This document shows, piece by piece, positions 57,739 to 63,951 of a stretch of 64,000 nucleotides of DNA. The stretch's first letter is position 1. Each line of letters opens with the position of its first letter. The stretch comes from Acutalibacteraceae bacterium (GTDB lineage Bacteria; Bacillota; Clostridia; Oscillospirales; Acutalibacteraceae): assembly GCA_045652165.1 (NCBI GenBank), contig JAZRTQ010000060.1, forward strand, positions 41,139 to 105,138. Direction: 5' to 3'. Below the pieces are notes generated by a model. That model made no database searches. It worked only from the letters and a program-made list of their open reading frames with translations, and was not told the origin of the DNA. The translations under genes were made by a program, and so were the position numbers.

Positions 57739-59112
57739 GTGATAAAAATGGAAAAAAGATATTCTTTGAATATGACAAGCGGACCTTTTCTGAAGAAAAT
57801 TCTCATTTTCTCCGTTCCGCTTATGCTAACGGGTCTTTTGCAACTTGCATATAACACCGCCGATGTTATCGTTGTTGGCAGATTTGCGGGCAAAGAGGCT
57901 CTTGCCGCAGTCGGTTCAACCGGCTCGCTCATAAATCTTCTGCTGAATGTTTTTCTCGGTCTTTCAATGGGCGCAGGTGTAATGATTGCCCGCCATATCG
58001 GCGCAAAAGACGAAGAAAGAGTTCATAAAAGCACTCACACCGCAATGGCGATAAGCGTTTTATGCGGATTCTTTGTTGGTGTTCTCGGATTTTTTCTGTC
58101 ACGGCATCTGCTTGTTCTTATGAAAGTTCCCGCAGATGTGCTTGACCTTGCATCTCTTTATCTTAAAATTTATTTTGCGGGTTCCCCCGGTATGCTTGCA
58201 TATAATTTCGGTGCATCCATAGTCAGAGCAACGGGCGACACAAAAAGACCGCTTTATATTCTTTTCCTTTCAGGTCTAGTTAATGTTGCTCTTAATCTTA
58301 TTCTCGTTATATTTTTTCATATGGGTGTCAGCGGCGTTGCAATAGCAACCATTGCTTCGCAATATATTTCCGCCGTAATGATAATAAAATATCTTACGGT
58401 TATTCCGAATTCCTGCCGTCTTTCATTCAGAAAGCTTCATATTTATAAAGAAGAGCTTCTGCCGATAATAAAACTCGGTCTGCCCGCAGGTATTCAGAAT
58501 TCGCTCTTTTCAGTTTCAAATGTTATCATTCAGTCAACCGTTAACGAATTCGGCTCGGTTGCAATGGCGGGCATTGCCGCAGGCTCAAATTTTGACTCTT
58601 ATGTTTACACCTGCACAAACGCCGTTTCGCAGACCTCGATGACTTTCACCTCGCAGAATATGGGTGCCAAAAAATACGGCAATATACCCAGAGTATACTC
58701 ATACTGCCTGATTATCACCGTTATAATCGGCACCGCGGGAGGAATGCTCGGCACTTTGTGTGCCGATACAATCACAGGCTTTTTCTCAACCGACCCCGAG
58801 GTTATCAAAATCGGCGCGGCAAGACTTGCACAGGTTATGCCGTTTTATGTTTTCTGCTCGCTTATGGATGTTGCGGGCAATCAGCTCAGAGGTATGGGCA
58901 AATCATACGAACCGATGATAGTTTCTCTCGTAGGCGCTTGCGGAGTAAGACTTGCGTGGATATTCTTTGTTCTTCCGCTCAACCACACACTCACCACACT
59001 TTATTGGGCTTATCCCATTTCCTGGGCGGCAACATTCTTTGCACAGTTCACTTTCTATTTTATAGTCAGAAAACAGATGAAGAGCAAGGGAATTACATTT
59101 AAAGAAGTTTAA
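57739..59112 (+). CDS. MATE family efflux transporter
   Basis: LQLAYN.AD..VVG, ALAAVG, GDTKRPL, GVSGVAIAT repeated halves. Confidence 0.92.
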   Translation: MIKMEKRYSLNMTSGPFLKKILIFSVPLMLTGLLQLAYNTADVIVVGRFAGKEALAAVGSTGSLINLLLNVFLGLSMGAGVMIARHIGAKDEERVHKSTHTAMAISVLCGFFVGVLGFFLSRHLLVLMKVPADVLDLASLYLKIYFAGSPGMLAYNFGASIVRATGDTKRPLYILFLSGLVNVALNLILVIFFHMGVSGVAIATIASQYISAVMIIKYLTVIPNSCRLSFRKLHIYKEELLPIIKLGLPAGIQNSLFSVSNVIIQSTVNEFGSVAMAGIAAGSNFDSYVYTCTNAVSQTSMTFTSQNMGAKKYGNIPRVYSYCLIITVIIGTAGGMLGTLCADTITGFFSTDPEVIKIGAARLAQVMPFYVFCSLMDVAGNQLRGMGKSYEPMIVSLVGACGVRLAWIFFVLPLNHTLTTLYWAYPISWAATFFAQFTFYFIVRKQMKSKGITFKEV

Positions 59113-59113
59113 A

Positions 59114-59145
59114 AAACAGGCAGAGTCGGTTGACTCTGCCTGTTT
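59114..59145. terminator. Bidirectional terminator
   Basis: 14-bp stem AAACAGGCAGAGTC/GACTCTGCCTGTTT. Confidence 0.8.
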
Positions 59146-59146
59146 C

Positions 59147-60097
59147 TTATTTAATCAAATCATTCTTCTTAATGAAATCAATTGTTTCGTCAACTGTCGT
59201 GAATGCAAGAGCAACGGTGGTATCAGCCGCACCGTAGTAAATTGCAATTCTGCCTGTTTCAGCATCTGCAAGAGCCGCACAGGGGAACACAACATTGGGC
59301 ACATCGCCAACGCATTCATAAAGCTCGTGAGGTGCAAGCAGGAAGCAATCTGCTCTGTGGAGCACCTTCCAGGGCTCATCCTTATCAAGGATTGCGGCGC
59401 CCATTGCATAGGTAAAGCCGTTACAGCTTGTAAGAACGCCGTGATAGAACATAAGCCAGCCTTCGTCTGTTTCAATGGGAGTGGGGCCTGCACCAACCTT
59501 GGTTGACTCCCAGATTTTCTGCGGCTGCATAACAAATCTGTGCTTGCCCCAATAGGTTAAATCCTTGCTGTGGCAAAGGAAAATATCGCCGTAGGGGGTA
59601 TGTCCTCTGTCGCAGGGACGGATGAGAAGAACATATTCATCATTTATCTTGCGGGGGAAGAGCACGCCGTTTCTTGCAACGGGATAGCAAGCATCCTCCA
59701 TCTGAACCCAATCTTTGAAGTTTTCGGTATAAGCAATACCGATGGTTGTGCCGTGAGGTGTAAGATTAACCCAGGAAAGATAATATTTGCCGTCAATTTC
59801 GCAGAGTCTGGGGTCATAGCCTCTGAAAATAACCTTTTCTTCAAGCTCCCAGTTGATTGCATCCTTACTGTATCCAACAACCAGAGTATGATCTCTCGAC
59901 ATCATATCTGCTCTGAAAACACCAGCAAAACCGTCGCCGTAAGGCACAACTGCGGAATTGAAAATGCTGTTTGCCATAAAAAGATTATCTCTTGTAATGA
60001 TAGGGTTGTTTGTGTATCTCCAAACGGGATATTTCCAACCCTCAGGCTTTTCCTGCCAAGGGATATTGGGAATGTTTGCTCCTATAATCTTTGCCAT
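59147..60097 (-). CDS. GH130 beta-mannoside phosphorylase (beta-1,4-mannosyl-GlcNAc/manno-oligosaccharide phosphorylase type)
   Basis: IPWQEKP, NSIFNSAVVP, YDPR, RNGVLFPRKI, KVGAGP.P, GDVPNVVFP, YYGAAD; ATG 60097. Confidence 0.88.
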   Translation of the reverse strand: MAKIIGANIPNIPWQEKPEGWKYPVWRYTNNPIITRDNLFMANSIFNSAVVPYGDGFAGVFRADMMSRDHTLVVGYSKDAINWELEEKVIFRGYDPRLCEIDGKYYLSWVNLTPHGTTIGIAYTENFKDWVQMEDACYPVARNGVLFPRKINDEYVLLIRPCDRGHTPYGDIFLCHSKDLTYWGKHRFVMQPQKIWESTKVGAGPTPIETDEGWLMFYHGVLTSCNGFTYAMGAAILDKDEPWKVLHRADCFLLAPHELYECVGDVPNVVFPCAALADAETGRIAIYYGAADTTVALAFTTVDETIDFIKKNDLIK

Positions 60098-60125: not shown

Positions 60126-60716
60126 TCAGAATTTTCTGCGAAGCTCAACAACCTTGCCGATAACCGTTACGGGCAATTCCGCAACTTCTTCTTTAGTGAA
60201 AACCATAGGCTCATACGACGAATTTTCAGACACGAGCAAAATGCTTGTGTCTTTTTTTATAAGTTTCTTAACAACAGCCTCTTCATTGTTAACGTGAACA
60301 ACCGCAATATCTCCGCTTTCTGCATCAGGCTGGCAACGAACTATAACCGTATCATCGGGATGAAACAGCGGAAACATACTGTCACCGTTAATTTTTAACC
60401 CGAAATACTTGCCTCTTCCTGCTAGTTCCGCGCCGATTTCTTCATATCCGATTACATCTTCAACAGCCTGCGCGGGAACACCCGCTTTAACATAGCCGAG
60501 AACAGGCACAAGAACCTTGTTTTCCTGCAAAGTGTTGCCGAGAATCGCATCAGCCGAGGCTTCAAGAACTCTTGACAAAACAAGAACGCTTTCTTTATCG
60601 GGTGCGGTGCGGTTGTTTTCCCATTGACTGACCGCCGTCTGATGAACATCGCAAAGCTCTGCAAGCTTCTTTTGCGAATAACCTTTTTTCAGCCTCAGCT
60701 CTTTTATTGCGTTCAC
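60126..60716 (-). CDS. CI/LexA-like repressor: XRE HTH plus S24 autopeptidase
   Basis: SQKKLAE..DV.Q.AVSQWENN; catalytic GDSM and VVKK; GTG 60716 after GAGGGG. Confidence 0.9.
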   Translation of the reverse strand: MNAIKELRLKKGYSQKKLAELCDVHQTAVSQWENNRTAPDKESVLVLSRVLEASADAILGNTLQENKVLVPVLGYVKAGVPAQAVEDVIGYEEIGAELAGRGKYFGLKINGDSMFPLFHPDDTVIVRCQPDAESGDIAVVHVNNEEAVVKKLIKKDTSILLVSENSSYEPMVFTKEEVAELPVTVIGKVVELRRKF

Positions 60717-60753
60717 GCTTCCGCCCCCTCTTGCAGTTTTTTCATACAAATAT

Positions 60754-60782
60754 ATTATGAGTGCCACTATTGAAAAAGTCAA
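60754..60782 (-). promoter_or_regulatory. Repressor promoter
   Basis: Minus strand TTGACT, 17 nt, CATAAT. Confidence 0.7.
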
Positions 60783-60812
60783 TAACAAATTAAAATTTTC
60801 TCAACTTTACAC

Positions 60813-60841
60813 TTGACAAACGAACATTTGTTCACTAGAAT
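60813..60841 (+). promoter_or_regulatory. Sigma-A promoter with Firmicutes SOS (LexA) box in the spacer
   Basis: TTGACA (60813-60818), 17 nt, TAGAAT (60836-60841); CGAACATTTGTTCA at 60821-60834 has the GAAC-N4-GTTC core. Confidence 0.8.
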
Positions 60842-60858
60842 TAATAGTACCGCTATTA
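60842..60858. promoter_or_regulatory. Candidate CI operator over the transcription start
   Basis: Palindrome TAATAG-TACCG-CTATTA; related site TATGAGTGCCACTATTG at 60756-60772 (12/17 identical). Confidence 0.5.
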
Positions 60859-60885
60859 CTTAAGCGGAATTTCAGGAGGTAAACC

Positions 60886-61533
60886 TTGGTTATGGATTTA
60901 AATGATACTTTTTTCAGCTTTCCGGATGAGCAGGAAATAAAAGCGGCTCAGGCAGCGTGCTGCGGCAGATACTGCACCGCCTGCGAAGCACCCGCAGAAT
61001 ATGCCTGGAGAAAAAGAAGCGTTGACCTTTCAATTCTTCTTGAAGCGGCAATTGAAGCGGAACTGACTGCACTTGAGCAGAAAATCATAAAAGATTTCTG
61101 GTTCAACTCAAAAACAATCACGGTTATTTCCAAAGAAAGAGGAGTTGCTCCCTCCAGCATAAGCTCAACGCTCGACAGAGCTCAGAGCAAACTGAAAAAA
61201 GCTCTCGGTTACATAATCAGATACCAGCACGATATTGATAACGAATCCATCATACCTCTTGCACTCGGCAAGGCAAGGGTTATTGCGGCGGCAAGAAACG
61301 CATCGGGCGGCACCTCCGCGCAAAGAATAATGCGTTTAAGGCAGAGTCAGAATCTTTCAAGAAAAATTCTGAGCAAAGCTTTGGGCATTTCCCAGACAAG
61401 GCTTGAAAACCTTGAACACGGCAAAGCCCCTTTAAATTTGCAGGAGCTTACGGCAATAAGCGAATTCTTTTCGGTATCAACCGATTTTATTTTGAAAGGA
61501 GTAGATTTCAACGGAAAAGAAAAGTCTTTATGA
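60886..61533 (+). CDS. Sigma-70 region 4-like HTH fused to an XRE HTH (putative phage-type activator)
   Basis: LT..EQKII..F...KT...IS.ERGV..SSIS..L.RA..KL; C-terminal LRQ..NLS...L...LGIS..RL..LE.G. Confidence 0.7.
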   Translation: MVMDLNDTFFSFPDEQEIKAAQAACCGRYCTACEAPAEYAWRKRSVDLSILLEAAIEAELTALEQKIIKDFWFNSKTITVISKERGVAPSSISSTLDRAQSKLKKALGYIIRYQHDIDNESIIPLALGKARVIAAARNASGGTSAQRIMRLRQSQNLSRKILSKALGISQTRLENLEHGKAPLNLQELTAISEFFSVSTDFILKGVDFNGKEKSL

Positions 61534-61534
61534 A

Positions 61535-61762
61535 TTGGGAACGGAATATGAAAAAGCTGCCGTAACCATTAAAACCCGTATTTCCGAAAGGAGAGCAAAG
61601 CTAAGGTCGCTAAAAAACGGAATCTGCTCCAAGGAAGCATTCATTCTTAAAAGCGAGCTTAATCAGCTCTACAGAGAATACAGGGATTGCAGAGAAACAG
61701 CAGAATATCTGAAACATTATTATGAAAAAGAAAGAAAAAAGAACGGAGCATTTGAAATATGA
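61535..61762 (+). CDS. Small basic coiled-coil protein of unknown function
   Basis: Coupled to neighbours; frame is open back to an ACG at 61511 behind AAGGAG. Confidence 0.65.
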   Translation: MGTEYEKAAVTIKTRISERRAKLRSLKNGICSKEAFILKSELNQLYREYRDCRETAEYLKHYYEKERKKNGAFEI

Positions 61763-62670
61763 ATACTATAGTTATATCAGAAGTTTCGGAAAACTTTGAG
61801 CTTTCAGCCGAATCCTCACAAGGATTCTCGGGCGAGCATAATGCCGAAACACTTGAAATAAACATCTCTCCGCTTATTCCCCAAGGATTTGATTACTATG
61901 TTCTGATTTTCGATGATTCATCGGTCAGCGGAGTTTTTAAATCGAATGAAATAAGAGGAGAAACCGACTACCCCGCATATATCAGCGGTGAAACAATAGT
62001 TTGTCCGCTTTCTTCACAGCTCACATCAACGGGCAGACTGAAATTTCAGCTTGAAGCACACAAAAACACCGAAAACGGTTCAATAATCAAAAAGACCTCG
62101 GTTGCTTCACTTGAATTCAAGCCTTCAATTATGGGCGGCAACGATATGCTTTTCAATCAGGACTATACTACAAAGCTTGATGAGCTTGACAAAAAAATTC
62201 TCGAATTATCGAAAGCTGTTGAATCTGTCCGTCAAATTCCTCTTGCTTCAACCTCAACCGTCGGCGGCATAAAACTTTCCTCTTCTTCGCCCATAACGCT
62301 CACCGAAAACGGAGCTGCAGATTTGGATATATCCAATATCAAAGAAATCAGTCTTGCGGCGAAGCTCATAATGTCACTTATGTATAACAGCACAAAAGCA
62401 AAATGCATTTATCAGAAAACCTGCGAAGAGGACACAAGAACCCTTTACTCATCAACTTCACAAGTAGTTGCCGGCAACTATGATTATGTGCTTTTCTATA
62501 CCGAAACAAACGGAACGATAAACTATCGAAATGCCGCAGGAGAAAAAGTTGACTTGAAAGCATCAAGCCAATATATTTACTGTTTCACCGGTTCAGGCAG
62601 CAATTTTACCGTTAAGGAATATAACAGAAATTCTTTCCGCGAGCTTCTTTTGGAAGGGGCGGTTAAATGA
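61759..62670 (+). CDS. BppU N-terminal-domain / tail-fibre-like protein
   Basis: GEHNA.TL.I and LT.TG.L.FQLEA resemble BppU_N; IPLAS.STVGGIKL resembles a tail-fibre repeat. Confidence 0.55.
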   Translation: MNTIVISEVSENFELSAESSQGFSGEHNAETLEINISPLIPQGFDYYVLIFDDSSVSGVFKSNEIRGETDYPAYISGETIVCPLSSQLTSTGRLKFQLEAHKNTENGSIIKKTSVASLEFKPSIMGGNDMLFNQDYTTKLDELDKKILELSKAVESVRQIPLASTSTVGGIKLSSSSPITLTENGAADLDISNIKEISLAAKLIMSLMYNSTKAKCIYQKTCEEDTRTLYSSTSQVVAGNYDYVLFYTETNGTINYRNAAGEKVDLKASSQYIYCFTGSGSNFTVKEYNRNSFRELLLEGAVK

Positions 62671-63215
62671 GCAAAAAAATCTGCATACTCGTTGGTCACG
62701 GAAAATCCGATAACGGCGGATACGACAGCGGAGCGGTCAGCATAGGCGGCAATTATCACGAATTTAAAATCGCAAAAGAAATCGCGAAACACGCCGCCGA
62801 ATATCTGAACTGTGACATTATGAACTATGAAGGCAACCTCAACCTTCGCCAGAGAATAAAAGCGGTAAATTCTGCAAATTACGATTTTATCGCAGAAGTT
62901 CATCTCAATGCGGGCGGCGGCACGGGGCCCGAGGTTTATTATTATCACGGCTCTCCGACGGGTCTTAAAACAGCAAAAGCAATATGCAAAGAAATTTCAT
63001 CGCAGTTTTCTGTGCGAAACAGAGGTCCCAAGGTTAAAATGGGCAAAAACGGCAAGGATTATTTCGGTATAATCAGAGATACCAAGCCTTGTGCAATTCT
63101 GATTGAAACCCTGTTTATTGACCGCGTTTCAGACCTCAGCAAACTTGCTTCTGCCGAAGGGCAGAAAAAATGCGGTCAGGCAATCGGAAAAGCATTAAAA
63201 AACACTTTGCTTTGA
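62667..63215 (+). CDS. N-acetylmuramoyl-L-alanine amidase (Amidase_3) endolysin, catalytic domain only
   Basis: VGHG, HE, EVHLNA, G.EVYY, ILIETLFID; no signal peptide or binding domain. Confidence 0.9.
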   Translation: MSKKICILVGHGKSDNGGYDSGAVSIGGNYHEFKIAKEIAKHAAEYLNCDIMNYEGNLNLRQRIKAVNSANYDFIAEVHLNAGGGTGPEVYYYHGSPTGLKTAKAICKEISSQFSVRNRGPKVKMGKNGKDYFGIIRDTKPCAILIETLFIDRVSDLSKLASAEGQKKCGQAIGKALKNTLL

Positions 63216-63228
63216 GCGGGGTGAGAAA

Positions 63229-63429
63229 ATGGACTGGGATATTTTATTTTCATTTCTCGGCTCTGCCGCAGGATGCATTGCAGGCATAGTCACCTCACAA
63301 AGACTTACGGGCTACCGTCTTCAACAGCTTGAAGCAAAGGTCAACAAGCATAATAATCTTGTTGAAAGAATGACGGCAAGCGAAATCAGAATTCAGAATA
63401 TTGAAGAAAGGATAAGAGAAAGCATATGA
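63229..63429 (+). CDS. Small phage lysis-cassette membrane/coiled-coil protein (XhlA-like)
   Basis: N-terminal TM then YRL.QLE.KV.KHNNLVER, common beside phage holins. Confidence 0.6.
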   Translation: MDWDILFSFLGSAAGCIAGIVTSQRLTGYRLQQLEAKVNKHNNLVERMTASEIRIQNIEERIRESI

Positions 63430-63704
63430 ATAAAATCAAGGATATTATTTTTGCGCTTCAGGGTGTCACCGCAGGTGCTTGGATTCGCCTCGGAATTCTT
63501 GTTGCGGCAATCATAAGCACCGCGCTCCGCCTTTTCGGCGTTGATACGGTTGATTTCGGCAATGAGAACTTTGAAAATGCCGCAAATATCGTTGTGCTCG
63601 TTACAAGTGCCGCGGCGGCATACTGGAAAAACAATTCTTTCACCGAAGCCGCGCAGGCAGCAGACGAAGTGCTTCAGATTATAAAAAACAGAGAAAACGT
63701 TTGA
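63426..63704 (+). CDS. SPP1-family phage holin
   Basis: Two TM segments and the WKNNSFT..A signature. Confidence 0.85.
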   Translation: MNKIKDIIFALQGVTAGAWIRLGILVAAIISTALRLFGVDTVDFGNENFENAANIVVLVTSAAAAYWKNNSFTEAAQAADEVLQIIKNRENV

Positions 63705-63711
63705 TTTTTTC

Positions 63712-63740
63712 TTGACAAATAACCGTTCCTTCATTATAAT
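63712..63740 (+). promoter_or_regulatory. Sigma-A promoter of tRNA-Val
   Basis: TTGACA, 17 nt, TATAAT. Confidence 0.8.
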
Positions 63741-63765
63741 AACATCTGCACTTATGTGCAGGTGA

Positions 63766-63841
63766 GGACGTTTAGCTCAGCTGGTAGAGCATTCGCTTGA
63801 CGTGCGAAGGGTCAGCGGTTCAAGTCCGTTAACGTCCACCA
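63766..63841 (+). tRNA. tRNA-Val(GAC)
   Basis: Acceptor GGACGTT/AACGTCC; anticodon arm TTCGC-TTGACGT-GCGAA; TTCAAGT; CCA. Confidence 0.95.
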
Positions 63842-63914
63842 AACGGGCATTGGATGAACACTTATTTTTTCAAAGGCGGTTTCGCCGTAAGGGTTCCGAT
63901 CTGATGCAAAACAG

Positions 63915-63951
63915 AAAAGAGAGTCAAGGTTTAAAGCCTTGGCTCTCTTTT
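63915..63951 (+). terminator. Intrinsic terminator downstream of tRNA-Val
   Basis: AAAAGAGAGTCAAGG / CCTTGGCTCTCTTTT stem followed by T-rich tail. Confidence 0.75.

What the first reader, a model, noticed from the sequence alone, without database searches (positions are those of the whole stretch)
60126..63704. Minimal intact phage-derived lysis module with no virion or mobility genes
Seen: in 3.6 kb lie a CI-like repressor and, divergently, a sigma4-XRE protein, a small protein, one BppU/tail-fibre-like gene, an amidase, an XhlA-like protein and an SPP1 holin. All frames are open, several are ATGA-coupled, and composition is not visibly different from the host. There is no integrase, capsid, terminase, tail tube or att repeat, and the flanks are a host enzyme and a tRNA promoter. 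Known: holin/endolysin cassettes have been domesticated elsewhere (tailocin and PBSX release, explosive lysis). Inference: a domesticated DNA-damage-triggered suicide or release system (abortive defence, eDNA or vesicle release, or export of the fibre-like protein), or a controller for tail genes elsewhere. An eroded prophage remains possible.
Basis: partly seen in the sequence, partly recalled or inferred. Interest (0 to 1): 0.8.

Follow-up and report, generated by a model that had tools for sequence, protein, structure and literature searches.

The report
SOS-gated orphan fibre-and-lysis cassette
A seven-gene leftover of a phage (a DNA-damage switch, one tail-fibre-like protein and a cell-bursting kit) has been kept intact next to the same tRNA gene across many species of a gut bacterial family, so the bacteria evidently use it, probably to burst some cells and release the fibre protein after DNA damage.

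Summary
Window 60126-63704 carries seven intact genes: a CI-like HTH+S24 repressor and, divergently, a sigma-region-4+XRE regulator, a 75-aa protein, a 303-aa fibre-like protein, an Amidase_3, a 66-aa single-TM protein and an SPP1 holin. tRNA-Val follows directly.

It is not a decaying prophage. The same cassette, in the same order, occurs in 39 of 84 related loci from Acutalibacteraceae and other Clostridia genomes and gut metagenomes. It is always flanked by host genes and never by integrase, capsid, terminase or tail genes. All seven genes have dN/dS of 0.0-0.29.

The operon promoter carries a Gram-positive LexA box (CGAACATTTGTTC) between -35 and -10, plus a conserved AATAG-N5-CTATT operator.

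One nested clade lost the fibre and lysis genes but kept the three regulators. There, and only there, the repressor's Ala-Gly self-cleavage site is mutated.

Lysin and holin types are swapped in distant variants while the architecture stays.

The fibre protein resembles BppU baseplate proteins by fold only. The "XhlA" call is not verified.

Best reading: a domesticated, SOS-triggered lysis and release cassette, a new variant of holin/endolysin cargo-release systems. Its biological role is untested.

The parts
60126..60716 (-). CI-like repressor of 196 aa: XRE-type HTH_3 followed by a Peptidase_S24 self-cleaving domain. The mechanical ORF runs to TTG 60788, but the likely start is GTG 60716.
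   Evidence: Pfam HTH_3 E 1.8e-14 and Peptidase_S24 E 1.3e-25. Below the LexA equivalog cut-off (79.7 against 110.95 bits). Orthologues are 196-202 aa. VKAG cleavage site, GDSM serine and VKKL lysine are intact. dN/dS is 0.07-0.15.
60754..60782 (-). Promoter of the repressor gene (TTGACT-17-CATAAT). An operator-like site, AATAGTGGCACTCAT (60757-60771), lies between the hexamers.
   Evidence: Promoter scan 10/12. The ATTATGAG, CTATT and GTCAA columns are invariant in 13 species.
60813..60841 (+). Operon promoter, TTGACA-17-TAGAAT.
   Evidence: Promoter scan 11/12. Both hexamers are invariant in 13 species.
60821..60833 (.). LexA (Cheo) box CGAACATTTGTTC, between the -35 and -10 of the operon promoter.
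   Evidence: It is the only CGAACN4GTTC in the 64 kb window. GAACN4GTT[CT] sits at the same place in 36 of 57 distinct promoters, with near-variants in others and a perfect CGAACATTTGTTCG in L058/L061/L082. The consensus is cited from PMC4234289.
60843..60857 (.). Palindromic operator AATAG-TACCG-CTATT just after the -10. Probably the site of the cassette's own repressor.
   Evidence: Present with at most 2 mismatches in 55 of 57 distinct promoters. Invariant half-sites in alignment A2. Assignment to the repressor is inference.
60886..61533 (+). Two-HTH regulator of 215 aa. It has an N-terminal invariant Cys motif (CCGRxCxxCExPxxYAWRxR), a sigma-70 region-4-like HTH and a C-terminal XRE HTH. 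There is no sigma region 2.
   Evidence: Alignment A3 gives the invariant residues. At least 158 homologous clusters, all about 210 aa. dN/dS is 0.11-0.25.
61535..61762 (+). Small helical protein of 75 aa (83-87 aa in other species). In this clade the canonical ATG is lost, so the start may be TTG 61535 by re-initiation after the TGA at 61531-33, or ATT 61505.
   Evidence: Conserved in every locus, including the trio-only loci. dN/dS is 0.06-0.40. No family match even at E = 10. Start-codon problem seen.
61759..62670 (+). Fibre-like cargo protein of 303 aa with no signal peptide. It has a conserved N-terminal beta-sandwich (residues 1-125), a coiled coil of variable length, and a fast-evolving C-terminal alpha/beta domain.
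   Evidence: AF2 model pLDDT 77. Foldseek hits phage 80alpha and NF5 baseplate chains at E 1e-4. 83 BFVD hits include BppU-domain, baseplate and tail proteins. The C-terminal domain has no PDB neighbour. dN/dS is about 0.1 for the N domain and about 0.26 for the C domain. Homologous N domains are fused to collagen+Phage_tail_C or Big_2 in variants.
62667..63215 (+). [quoted passage not shown] Catalytic domain only, with no signal peptide and no wall-binding domain.
   Evidence: Amidase_3 1-174/174, E 4.7e-26. phrog_435 endolysin E 8e-43. Orthologues in L006-L011 and L017 carry an extra SH3_3 C-terminus. dN/dS is 0.04-0.16.
63229..63429 (+). 66-aa protein with an N-terminal transmembrane segment and a C-terminal coiled coil. 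Probably a holin accessory. Not a Pfam XhlA member.
   Evidence: phrog_1863 E 2e-9, function unknown. No XhlA hit at E up to 10. It is the most conserved cargo gene, 63-100% identical. dN/dS is 0.0-0.13.
63426..63704 (+). SPP1-family holin of 92 aa with two hydrophobic segments.
   Evidence: Holin_SPP1 E 8e-17, 61.6 bits. phrog_263 holin. dN/dS is 0.0-0.23.
63712..63951 (+). tRNA-Val(GAC) unit that marks the constant right-hand border. It comprises its own promoter (63712-63740), the tRNA (63766-63841) and the first terminator after the operon (63915-63951).
   Evidence: tRNA-Val(GAC) follows the holin in L002-L011, and follows the small gene directly in trio-only loci. No terminator lies between the holin and the tRNA.

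Best explanation
This is a vertically inherited, domesticated prophage remnant. It appears to be what is left when a temperate siphophage keeps only its immunity switch and the far end of its late operon.

**Proposed mechanism**
1. In unstressed cells one strong promoter (60813-60841) is shut by two RecA-sensitive repressors. Host LexA sits on the Cheo box between -35 and -10. The cassette's own CI-like HTH+S24 repressor sits on AATAG-N5-CTATT just after the -10, and on a related site in its own promoter.
2. DNA damage activates RecA, both repressors cleave themselves, and one translationally coupled mRNA is made.
3. That mRNA encodes a two-HTH regulator, a small helical protein, a signal-less tail-fibre-like protein, a signal-less amidase, a small membrane protein and an SPP1 holin.
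4. The holin, with the 66-aa helper, opens the membrane and the amidase cuts the wall.
5. The cell lyses, or becomes leaky, and the fibre-like protein is released along with cell contents.

**Shown**
- Gene content.
- Conservation and purifying selection.
- The promoter, the LexA box and the operators.
- Intact cleavage residues, and their loss together with the cargo.
- Absence of virion genes at the cassette in every locus with readable flanks.

**Inferred**
- Which protein binds which site.
- Induction by DNA damage.
- Lysis.
- Release of the fibre-like protein, and what that protein does outside the cell. Candidates are binding to a strain-specific surface receptor for competition, kin recognition or masking of phage receptors.
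For: **Architecture and context**
- The same seven genes in the same order occur in 12 of 12 species genomes found. Across 84 loci, 39 are complete, and 24 cannot be scored because the contig ends, 7 of those within or just after the fibre gene.
- Flanks are host metabolic genes in every locus checked. There is no integrase, capsid, terminase or tail gene.
- No relative of the fibre protein or of the regulator was found in IMG/VR. The fibre protein also has no match in GenBank phages.

**Selection**
- All ORFs are intact.
- NG86 dN/dS is 0.0-0.29, against 0.01-0.12 for the flanking host genes.

**Regulatory DNA**
- Regulatory DNA is conserved while the neighbouring intergenic sequence drifts.
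- A LexA box lies inside the promoter in 36 of 57 distinct promoters, plus near-variants.
- GAACN4GTTC is the LexA operator of Bacillus and clostridia (PMC4234289).

**Repressor cleavability tracks the cargo**
- The Ala-Gly site, the serine and the lysine are intact in all 28 distinct repressors that sit next to lysis genes.
- The glycine is replaced (A-E, A-A or A-D) in all 8 repressors of the trio-only clade and in 6 more contig-cut members of that clade.
- The serine is also lost in 3 of them.

**Replacement of parts with the layout kept**
- L060 has Amidase_2.
- L058 has Phage_holin_5_2 and an added GDSL esterase.
- L085 has NLPC_P60.

**Coupling to the lysis genes**
- Neither the fibre protein nor the amidase has a signal peptide (read).
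- Three ATGA overlaps link the genes.
Against: - No expression or induction data exist. Only DNA metagenome runs hold related sequence.
- The cargo is dispensable. One large clade and at least three other lineages lost it, while the three regulators stay under purifying selection. The regulators therefore do something besides controlling lysis.
- Three loci keep the lysis genes but lack the fibre gene (L040, L072, L080), so fibre release cannot be the only selected function.
- The LexA box is absent from a basal clade that still has the cassette.
- A conserved BppU-like N-terminal domain normally docks onto a baseplate, and no such partner is seen here.
- Putting a holin directly under an early promoter gives no obvious delay mechanism.
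- Host LexA was not identified in these genomes.
Confidence: 0.6

Rival explanations
1. Anti-phage suicide (abortive infection) or herd protection. The same machinery is used, but the selected trigger is phage infection or induction of a resident prophage. That trigger activates RecA or otherwise inactivates the repressor. Premature lysis then kills the infected cell before progeny mature. The fibre-like protein may act as a decoy that poisons phage baseplate assembly, or may mask receptors on sister cells.
For: - The C-terminal half of the fibre protein evolves fastest.
- It is swapped between near-identical backgrounds: 73% identity between the window and L002, where the flanking proteins are 95-100% identical, with raised dS.
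- Its N domain is shuffled onto many different C-termini. This pattern is typical of arms-race proteins.
- Lysins and holins are exchanged as in phages.
Against: - There is no match to any PADLOC defence model beyond generic HTH domains.
- The LexA box points to general DNA damage rather than a phage-specific cue.
- No phage-sensing component is recognisable.
- The cassette is not in a defence island. Its neighbours are metabolic genes.
Confidence: 0.15
2. A trans-acting part of a tail-like particle (tailocin) or of another prophage encoded elsewhere in the genome. The cassette would supply the regulator, an exchangeable receptor-binding fibre and the lysis function. The three regulators would also switch on the unlinked tail genes.
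For: - The N-terminal domain is strongly conserved (dN/dS about 0.1, many invariant residues).
- It has the fold of BppU-type baseplate anchors, which implies a docking partner.
- The regulator pair stays under selection where the cargo is gone, so it probably has other targets.
- The layout recalls the PBSX Xre / sigma-like Xpf / late operon / lysis arrangement (own knowledge).
Against: - Tail genes are not adjacent in any locus with readable flanks, including contigs of 100-490 kb where 8-10 kb on each side were read.
- No phage family appears among the 25 listed of the 45 Pfam families matched by 44 ORFs of the other 56 kb of the window.
- In the three informative look-ups, N-domain homologues lay in the same kind of cassette, not in phages.
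- There are no hits in IMG/VR or GenBank phages.
- Whole genomes could not be searched.
Confidence: 0.15
3. A neutral, slowly eroding prophage remnant with no function, kept silent by its repressor.
For: - The gene content is what a deletion between the immunity region and the distal late genes would leave.
- The cargo has been lost several times.
Against: - All seven ORFs are intact across dozens of species at synonymous saturation (dS of 1 to more than 2), with dN/dS of 0.0-0.29.
- Promoter and operators are conserved.
- Lysin and holin have been replaced by non-orthologous types with the layout kept.
- The repressor's cleavage site is kept exactly where the cargo is kept.
Confidence: 0.05

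Closest known systems
Clostridial holin/endolysin-linked cargo loci: the Bcn5 bacteriocin locus (uviA sigma factor, uviB holin, amidase, bcn) and the C. difficile PaLoc (TcdR, TcdE holin, TcdL endolysin remnant)
   Same: - A sigma-type regulator, a holin, an amidase-type lysin and a signal-less cargo protein are encoded together on the chromosome or a plasmid without virion genes.
- The parts are phage-derived.
- Bcn5 is UV-inducible (PMC9527704; PMC6200909).
   Different: - The cargo here is a tail-fibre-like protein, not a toxin or bacteriocin with a recognisable killing domain.
- The regulator lacks sigma region 2 and carries an extra XRE domain.
- A CI-like self-cleaving repressor is part of the locus.
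- None of the proteins is homologous at family level to UviA/B, Bcn5 or TcdR/E.
PBSX-type defective prophage of Bacillus subtilis (Xre repressor, sigma-like Xpf, late operon ending in xepA-xhlA-xhlB-xlyA); recalled from own knowledge
   Same: - An XRE repressor lies divergent from a sigma-like positive regulator.
- It is SOS-inducible, non-mobile and fixed in the species.
- The lysis block consists of an amidase, a small membrane protein and an SPP1/XhlB-type holin, preceded by a non-enzymatic exported protein.
   Different: - PBSX keeps about 30 kb of head and tail genes and makes particles. Here a single fibre-like gene is left.
- The 66-aa protein is not a Pfam XhlA member.
- The repressor has its own S24 domain.
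Colicin and S-pyocin operons (LexA- or RecA-controlled toxin plus lysis gene); recalled from own knowledge
   Same: A LexA box lies in the promoter of an operon that couples a released protein to a lysis function, expressed in a fraction of cells after DNA damage.
   Different: - No immunity gene or toxin domain is recognisable.
- The lysis function is a full holin-endolysin pair.
- The host is Gram-positive.
Domesticated lysis cassette of the E. coli defective prophage DLP12, and the Listeria XRE-pair/metzincin remnant
   Same: Minimal phage-derived cassettes retained in the host and influencing the envelope, vesicles or lysis (PMC7918800, PMC8235301).
   Different: - Those are species-level remnants.
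- This one is conserved as a unit across many species of a family.
- It carries its own SOS switch and a fibre-like cargo.
BppU (upper baseplate protein) of lactococcal and staphylococcal siphophages
   Same: An N-terminal beta-sandwich followed by a coiled coil and an exchangeable C-terminal module. The best fold matches are 80alpha and NF5 baseplate chains and BppU-annotated viral proteins.
   Different: - There is no sequence-level match to PF10651.
- No Dit, Tal or other baseplate partner is encoded nearby.
- The C-terminal domain has no structural neighbour.

Membership tests
LexA/CI-type self-cleaving repressors (HTH + Peptidase_S24) | N-terminal DNA-binding HTH and C-terminal S24 domain | tested here: met
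   HTH_3 E 1.8e-14; Peptidase_S24 E 1.3e-25, profile positions 1-116 of 116.
LexA/CI-type self-cleaving repressors (HTH + Peptidase_S24) | Ala-Gly cleavage site and Ser/Lys catalytic dyad | tested here: met
   VKAG, GDSM and VKKL are present in the window and in all 28 distinct cargo-linked homologues.
LexA/CI-type self-cleaving repressors (HTH + Peptidase_S24) | RecA-stimulated self-cleavage | not testable with these tools
   Needs biochemistry.
LexA proper (TIGR00498) | LexA winged-helix DNA-binding domain and the equivalog score | tested here: not met
   79.7 bits against a cut-off of 110.95. Only residues 82-220 match, and the N-terminus is an XRE HTH.
Sigma-70 family factors (including the TcdR/UviA group and PBSX Xpf) | Region 2 (core binding and -10 recognition) together with region 4 | tested here: not met
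   Only region 4 is matched: Pfam 22.7 bits, below the 24.1 cut-off, and TIGR02937 positions 106-165 of 165 only. No region 2 hit.
BppU baseplate proteins (PF10651 BppU_N) | Sequence match to BppU_N | tested here: not met
   No Pfam, PHROG or NCBIfam hit. Only P0066, which shares the C-terminal domain, has a sub-threshold BppU_N hit at E 3e-3.
BppU baseplate proteins (PF10651 BppU_N) | BppU-like fold (N-terminal beta-sandwich plus coiled coil) | tested here: met
   Foldseek hits 6v8i_AJ/AK and 9m8o_P/Q at E 1e-4 to 1e-3 with probability 1.0. There are 83 BFVD hits, many annotated as BppU, baseplate or tail. TM-scores are low (0.26-0.47) because only part of the model aligns.
BppU baseplate proteins (PF10651 BppU_N) | Encoded with Dit, Tal and receptor-binding baseplate genes | tested here: not met
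   No such genes lie next to the cassette in any locus with readable flanks.
XhlA (PF10779) | Sequence match to the XhlA profile | tested here: not met
   No hit at E up to 10. Only phrog_1863, of unknown function.
SPP1 holin family (PF04688) | Profile match above the gathering score, in a small protein with two hydrophobic segments | tested here: met
   61.6 bits against a cut-off of 27. The hydrophobic segments are read from the sequence.
Phage endolysin, Amidase_3 type | Full catalytic domain with no signal peptide, encoded next to a holin | tested here: met
   Amidase_3 1-174 of 174; phrog_435 endolysin. The wall-binding SH3_3 domain present in L006-L011 and L017 is absent here.
Intact or defective prophage / tailocin (PBSX, diffocin, monocin type) | Integrase, terminase, capsid, or tail tube, sheath or baseplate genes | tested here: not met
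   None in the window cassette, in its 56 kb upstream as far as listed, in the 9 kb downstream of a near-identical relative, or in the other loci with readable flanks.
Holin/endolysin-dependent cargo release (Bcn5, PaLoc, type 10 secretion) | Signal-less cargo encoded in one unit with a holin and a peptidoglycan hydrolase | tested here: met
   Gene order and ATGA coupling. The layout is conserved with swapped lysin and holin types.
Holin/endolysin-dependent cargo release (Bcn5, PaLoc, type 10 secretion) | Holin-dependent appearance of the cargo outside the cell | not testable with these tools
   Needs genetics and supernatant proteomics.
Known anti-phage defence systems (PADLOC-DB 2.0) | Match of a core component to a defence model | tested here: not met
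   Only generic HTH models match (HTH_VI, RmrA N-terminus, capH). The five cargo proteins have no hit.

The most novel reading that the evidence does not exclude
The cassette may be a free-standing 'fibre release' system. A single phage-tail-fibre-derived protein, with a conserved N-terminal oligomerisation or anchor domain and a strain-specific C-terminal binding domain, would be the payload. Altruistic SOS-triggered lysis would release it, and it would act outside the cell on its own.

Possible roles are a soluble receptor-binding effector that masks phage receptors on kin, marks or agglutinates competitors, or targets lysis-derived vesicles.

The accompanying two-HTH regulator and small protein would form a separate SOS-controlled transcription module. 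The host kept this module even after discarding the lethal cargo, and at that point it disarmed the repressor's self-cleavage.
Probability: 0.25. Interest if true: 0.85.

Novelty: new variant of a known kind. Interest (0 to 1): 0.66.

Why it matters
- **Ecology.** Acutalibacteraceae are common, mostly uncultured gut anaerobes of humans and livestock. A conserved SOS-triggered lysis cassette would link DNA-damaging drugs and diet to cell lysis, DNA and vesicle release, and strain competition in the gut.
- **Domestication.** This is an unusually clean case: about 3.6 kb, seven genes, a fixed locus, and dozens of species.
- **A natural experiment.** Where the lethal cargo was lost, the repressor's cleavage site decayed. 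That is comparative evidence that the switch is used.
- **The fibre-like protein.** It has a conserved anchor domain, an uncharacterised and fast-evolving head, and no baseplate. This raises a concrete question about what a tail fibre does without a tail.
- **The regulator pair.** The pair with its invariant Cys motif is an undescribed SOS-controlled module.

Tried and rejected
**Look-ups and searches that found nothing**
- Exact-protein look-ups of the 303-aa protein and the amidase found nothing. The holin look-up gave the first relative.
- Sequence families for the 303-aa, 75-aa and 66-aa proteins: none in Pfam, PHROGs or NCBIfam, even at E = 10.
- A PDB sequence-profile search for the fibre family gave only coiled-coil noise.
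- A Foldseek search of the separately modelled C-terminal domain gave no significant neighbour.
- Searches for the fibre and regulator families in IMG/VR, and for the fibre protein in GenBank phages, gave no relative. A living phage ancestor was therefore not found.
- att-like flanking repeats: only chance matches.
- PADLOC defence models: generic HTH matches only.

**Data that were unavailable**
- Expression evidence: only DNA metagenome runs share sequence, with at most 14% of words. No read mapping was attempted.
- Context of further N-domain-only homologues: P0066, P0093 and P0104 sit on contigs too short to be informative.

**Ideas considered and dropped**
- tRNA-Val as an attachment site. 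The cassette lies on the 5' side of the tRNA, with the tRNA promoter in between and no integrase, so the adjacency is not the usual 3'-end integration scar.
- A Tn916-like orf9/orf7/orf8 regulatory region next to a tet gene. The GTPase found in L001-L003 is only a distant Tet/EF-G relative below the cut-off and is in the wrong orientation.
- The 303-aa protein as a separately encoded wall-binding subunit of the amidase. Orthologous cassettes whose amidase has its own SH3 domain still keep the fibre gene.

**Technical failures, re-run**
- One script timed out and one call was lost. Both were re-run.

Full report
**1. What is in the window**

The region 60126-63704 contains seven open reading frames, as described. 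On the minus strand is a protein with an XRE-type helix-turn-helix and a complete Peptidase_S24 domain. It scores below NCBI's LexA equivalog cut-off, and only its C-terminal half matches LexA, so it is CI-like rather than LexA.

On the plus strand follow six genes:
- a 215-aa protein with a C-terminal HTH_3 and a weak sigma-70 region-4 match, with no region 2;
- a 75-aa protein with no family;
- a 303-aa protein with no family;
- an Amidase_3 that covers the whole Pfam profile;
- a 66-aa protein that matches only an uncharacterised PHROG;
- an SPP1-family holin.

Three gene junctions are ATGA overlaps. GC content does not differ from the flanks. No att-like repeats bracket the region.

Upstream lie a GH130 phosphorylase and a MatE transporter. 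Downstream is a complete tRNA-Val(GAC) gene with its own consensus promoter, and the first terminator comes only after that tRNA. The other 56 kb of the window encode host functions: teichoic-acid and glycosyl transferases, glycoside hydrolases, citrate synthase and sporulation YqfD. No phage family appears among the 25 listed of the 45 Pfam families matched.

- The repressor most likely starts at GTG 60716 (196 aa). This fits its orthologues and places it downstream of its own promoter.
- The 66-aa protein is not a Pfam XhlA member.
- The 'BppU-like' call has no sequence support.

**2. The cassette is conserved as a unit and never sits in a prophage**

The holin look-up found a near-identical relative, an Acutalibacteraceae MAG whose flanking proteins are 92-99% identical. 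It has the same cassette at the same locus, and beyond the tRNA it has only host genes. This closes the gap left by the end of the window.

A scan of one genome per species returned 12 loci, and all 12 carry all seven genes in the same order. Identities to the window fall from about 90% to 30-45%. tRNA-Val(GAC) follows the holin in 10 of the 12.

The left flank changes with phylogenetic distance: GH130/MatE, pyruvate formate-lyase, ftsEX-M23-ctpA, or aldehyde dehydrogenase. It is always host metabolism.

A metagenome scan with the regulator added 62 loci. The 84 loci classify as follows:

| State | Loci |
|---|---|
| Complete cassette | 39 |
| Three regulatory genes followed directly by tRNA-Val | 15 |
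| Lysis genes without the fibre gene | 3 |
| Three regulators followed by host genes | 3 |
| Cut by a contig end within or just after the fibre gene | 7 |
| Cut earlier by a contig end | 17 |

The three 'regulators followed by host genes' loci were confirmed by Pfam. No locus with readable flanks has an integrase, terminase, capsid or tail gene next to the cassette.

Neither the fibre protein nor the regulator has a relative in 2.9 million IMG/VR contigs. The fibre protein also has none in 50,697 GenBank phages.

**3. Selection**

All seven ORFs are intact in the species loci. Pairwise NG86 dN/dS is 0.0-0.29 for every cassette gene, at dS values from 0.2 to above 2. The flanking host genes give 0.01-0.12.

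The fibre gene is the least constrained. Its N-terminal 125 codons give about 0.1 and the rest about 0.26. Between the window and its closest relative, the fibre protein is only 73% identical while the adjacent amidase, 66-aa protein and holin are 95-100% identical. The dS of the fibre gene (0.88) and of the repressor (0.70) exceeds that of their neighbours (0.16-0.44). This indicates exchange of alleles by recombination.

**4. The switch**

The 170-bp divergent region is far better conserved than ordinary intergenic DNA. It holds two promoters.
- The repressor promoter is TTGACT-17-CATAAT on the minus strand.
- The operon promoter is TTGACA-17-TAGAAT on the plus strand.

Between the -35 and -10 of the operon promoter lies CGAACATTTGTTC. 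This is the only CGAACN4GTTC in the 64 kb window. GAACN4GTTC is the LexA operator of Bacillus and clostridia (PMC4234289).

Among 57 distinct promoters, 36 have GAACN4GTT[CT] at this position. Several more have a one-base variant, and three have a perfect CGAACATTTGTTCG overlapping the -35. A basal clade lacks the box.

A second palindrome, AATAG-N5-CTATT, directly follows the -10 in 55 of the 57 promoters. A related site lies inside the repressor's own promoter. I assign the first motif to host LexA and the second to the cassette repressor. That assignment is inference.

**5. Cargo and repressor cleavability are lost together**

The repressor has the Ala-Gly site (VKAG), the serine (GDSM) and the lysine (VKKL) of self-cleaving repressors. 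All 28 distinct repressors encoded next to lysis genes keep all three features. One search flagged six of these as degenerate only because an inserted alignment column made 'AG' read as 'AGE'. One search shows that the Ala-Gly is present in them.

The regulator tree places the trio-only loci in a nested group. There the glycine is replaced (A-E, A-A or A-D) in all 8 scored members and in 6 more whose contigs end early. The serine is also replaced in three of them. From my own knowledge, Gly-to-Asp or Gly-to-Glu at this position is the classic non-inducible mutation of LexA and lambda CI.

The three regulatory genes of this clade still have dN/dS of 0.03-0.40, and most of these loci keep the LexA box. 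Because deeper branches carry the full cassette, the trio-only state is a loss.

I draw two conclusions.
- Where the lethal cargo exists, an inducible repressor is maintained by selection, so the switch is used.
- The regulator pair has a function of its own.

**6. The fibre-like protein**

The family is small. A word-indexed search found 34 proteins. An HMM search of 1.84 billion representatives found 162, of which about 15 are full length. Most hits share only the N-terminal 125-150 residues, fused to unrelated C-termini of 240-770 aa. A few share only the C-terminal domain.

The AlphaFold model (pLDDT 77) shows an N-terminal beta-sandwich, a long helix and a C-terminal alpha/beta domain.
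- Foldseek's best PDB matches are baseplate chains of phages 80alpha and NF5, at E 1e-4.
- In BFVD, 83 viral proteins match, many annotated as BppU-domain, baseplate or tail proteins.
- The C-terminal domain, modelled alone (pLDDT 84.5), has no significant PDB neighbour.

In distant cassettes the same N domain is fused to collagen repeats plus a phage tail-tip domain, or to an Ig-like Big_2 domain followed by a GDSL esterase gene. So the protein is of tail-fibre or upper-baseplate type by fold and modular behaviour.

In the three informative look-ups, its N-domain relatives sat in the same kind of cassette, not in phages. It has no signal peptide.

**7. Parts are replaceable but the architecture is not**

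| Locus | Regulators | Cargo and lysis genes |
|---|---|---|
| L017 | Same as the window | Seven-gene order, with a 458-aa fibre and an amidase carrying SH3_3 |
| L060 | Same trio | Amidase_2 with an SPP1 holin |
| L058 | Same trio | Amidase_3 with a Hol44-type holin |
| L085 | 61-aa XRE repressor, 126-aa region-4 protein, small protein | 733-aa fibre, an NLPC_P60 hydrolase and a 126-aa protein |

The L085 regulators are detectably homologous to those of the window cassette. Non-orthologous replacement with the layout preserved argues that selection acts on the function 'regulated fibre plus lysis', and that these loci still exchange modules with phages.

**8. Mechanism proposed**

In unstressed cells LexA and the CI-like repressor jointly close the operon promoter. 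RecA activation removes both. The coupled operon is then expressed, the holin and its 66-aa partner permeabilise the membrane, and the cytoplasmic amidase reaches the wall. The cell lyses or leaks, and the fibre-like protein is released.

The likely origin is a temperate siphophage that lost its integrase and everything between the immunity region and the distal late genes. That deletion would put the lysis genes under the early promoter.

What remains unknown:
- the role of the released fibre;
- the role of the regulator with its invariant CCGRxCxxCE...YAWRxR motif, and of the small protein;
- whether release is lytic or, as argued for clostridial toxins and Bcn5, partly non-lytic (PMC9527704).

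**9. Comparison with known systems**

In working principle the closest systems are:
- clostridial holin/endolysin-linked cargo loci, namely Bcn5 with UviA, UviB and an amidase, and the PaLoc with TcdR, TcdE and TcdL;
- SOS-controlled colicin-plus-lysis operons;
- the PBSX regulatory and lysis ends;
- domesticated lysis cassettes such as DLP12.

It is a member of none of them at family level. The regulator is not a sigma factor, because it lacks region 2. The 66-aa protein is not XhlA. The fibre protein is not a Pfam BppU. There are no tail genes, and no defence-system model matches. I found no paper describing this cassette.

I therefore rate it a new variant of a known kind. It is interesting mainly for three reasons: its breadth and cleanness, the co-loss of cargo and repressor cleavability, and the puzzle of a conserved tail fibre without a tail.

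**10. Limits**

- All relatives are MAGs or metagenome contigs.
- Whole genomes could not be searched for unlinked tail genes.
- The locus searches depended on short peptide patterns, so absences and frequencies are not unbiased.
- The tree is a midpoint-rooted NJ tree of one 210-aa protein.
- dN/dS at dS above 1.5 is only qualitative.
- No expression data exist.

Noticed in passing
L001 4764-6686 (-); the same gene in L002 and L003, between GH130 and the repressor; absent in the window, L004 and L005: A 640-aa translational GTPase related to tetracycline ribosomal-protection proteins and EF-G is inserted exactly between GH130 and the repressor in some close relatives. It scores 396 bits against a cut-off of 775 for NF012153. 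In the window, the GH130 coding start (MAKIIG) and the repressor stop are only about 28 bp apart.
   Followed up: partly
L003 3445-5428, with equivalents in L004 and L005: A 477-aa protein with an N-terminal XRE HTH lies between MatE and GH130 in these relatives but not in the window or L002; L003 and L004 also have a 185-aa ORF there.
   Followed up: partly
window 62667-63215, compared with L006 6524-7270 and L017 5910-6668: The amidase is catalytic-domain-only (182-188 aa) in the window's clade and in L012/L013. It carries a C-terminal extension of about 70 aa in L006-L011 and L017, identified as SH3_3 in L017 (not identified in L006-L011). The window lineage therefore lacks the wall-binding domain.
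   Followed up: partly
window 61505-61540; L002 9738-9790; L003 9747-9790: In this clade the small gene has lost the ATG used in other species. The only in-frame candidates are ATT right after a stop codon, or, in the window only, a TTG 2 nt after the regulator's stop codon. The frame is +1 relative to the regulator. Re-initiation, a non-canonical start or frameshifting are all possible.
   Followed up: partly
window 60940-61030 (residues 21-47 of the regulator): An invariant motif, A-x3-CCGR-x-C-x2-CE-x-P-x2-YAWR-x-R-x2-D, is present in all 24 aligned homologues. It may be a metal or Fe-S binding site. It has no Pfam match.
   Followed up: partly
L018 10593-15797, compared with L019 10592-11032: In one MAG the SpoVAC/SpoVAEB-family gene downstream of the trio is reduced to a 46-aa fragment next to three tandem large serine recombinase genes. 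It is intact (146 aa) in near-identical contigs. This looks like a recombinase-borne element inserted in a sporulation gene.
   Followed up: no
L047, L048, L055 (10977-13312); L044, L046: In a group of gut-metagenome loci (contig names mark L048 and L057 as human gut), 0.6-2.3 kb of extra sequence separates the holin from tRNA-Val. I did not examine its content.
   Followed up: no
window 278-5718 and neighbouring genes: The 5' part of the window encodes enzymes of the wall teichoic-acid or polysaccharide synthesis type: two Glyphos_transf, two Glycos_transf_2, an IspD-like cytidylyltransferase and FemAB. These are the kind of surface structures that tail fibres bind. No link to the cassette was tested.
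   Followed up: no
window 59110-59149: A near-perfect 18-bp inverted repeat lies between the convergent MatE and GH130 genes. It is probably a bidirectional terminator.
   Followed up: no
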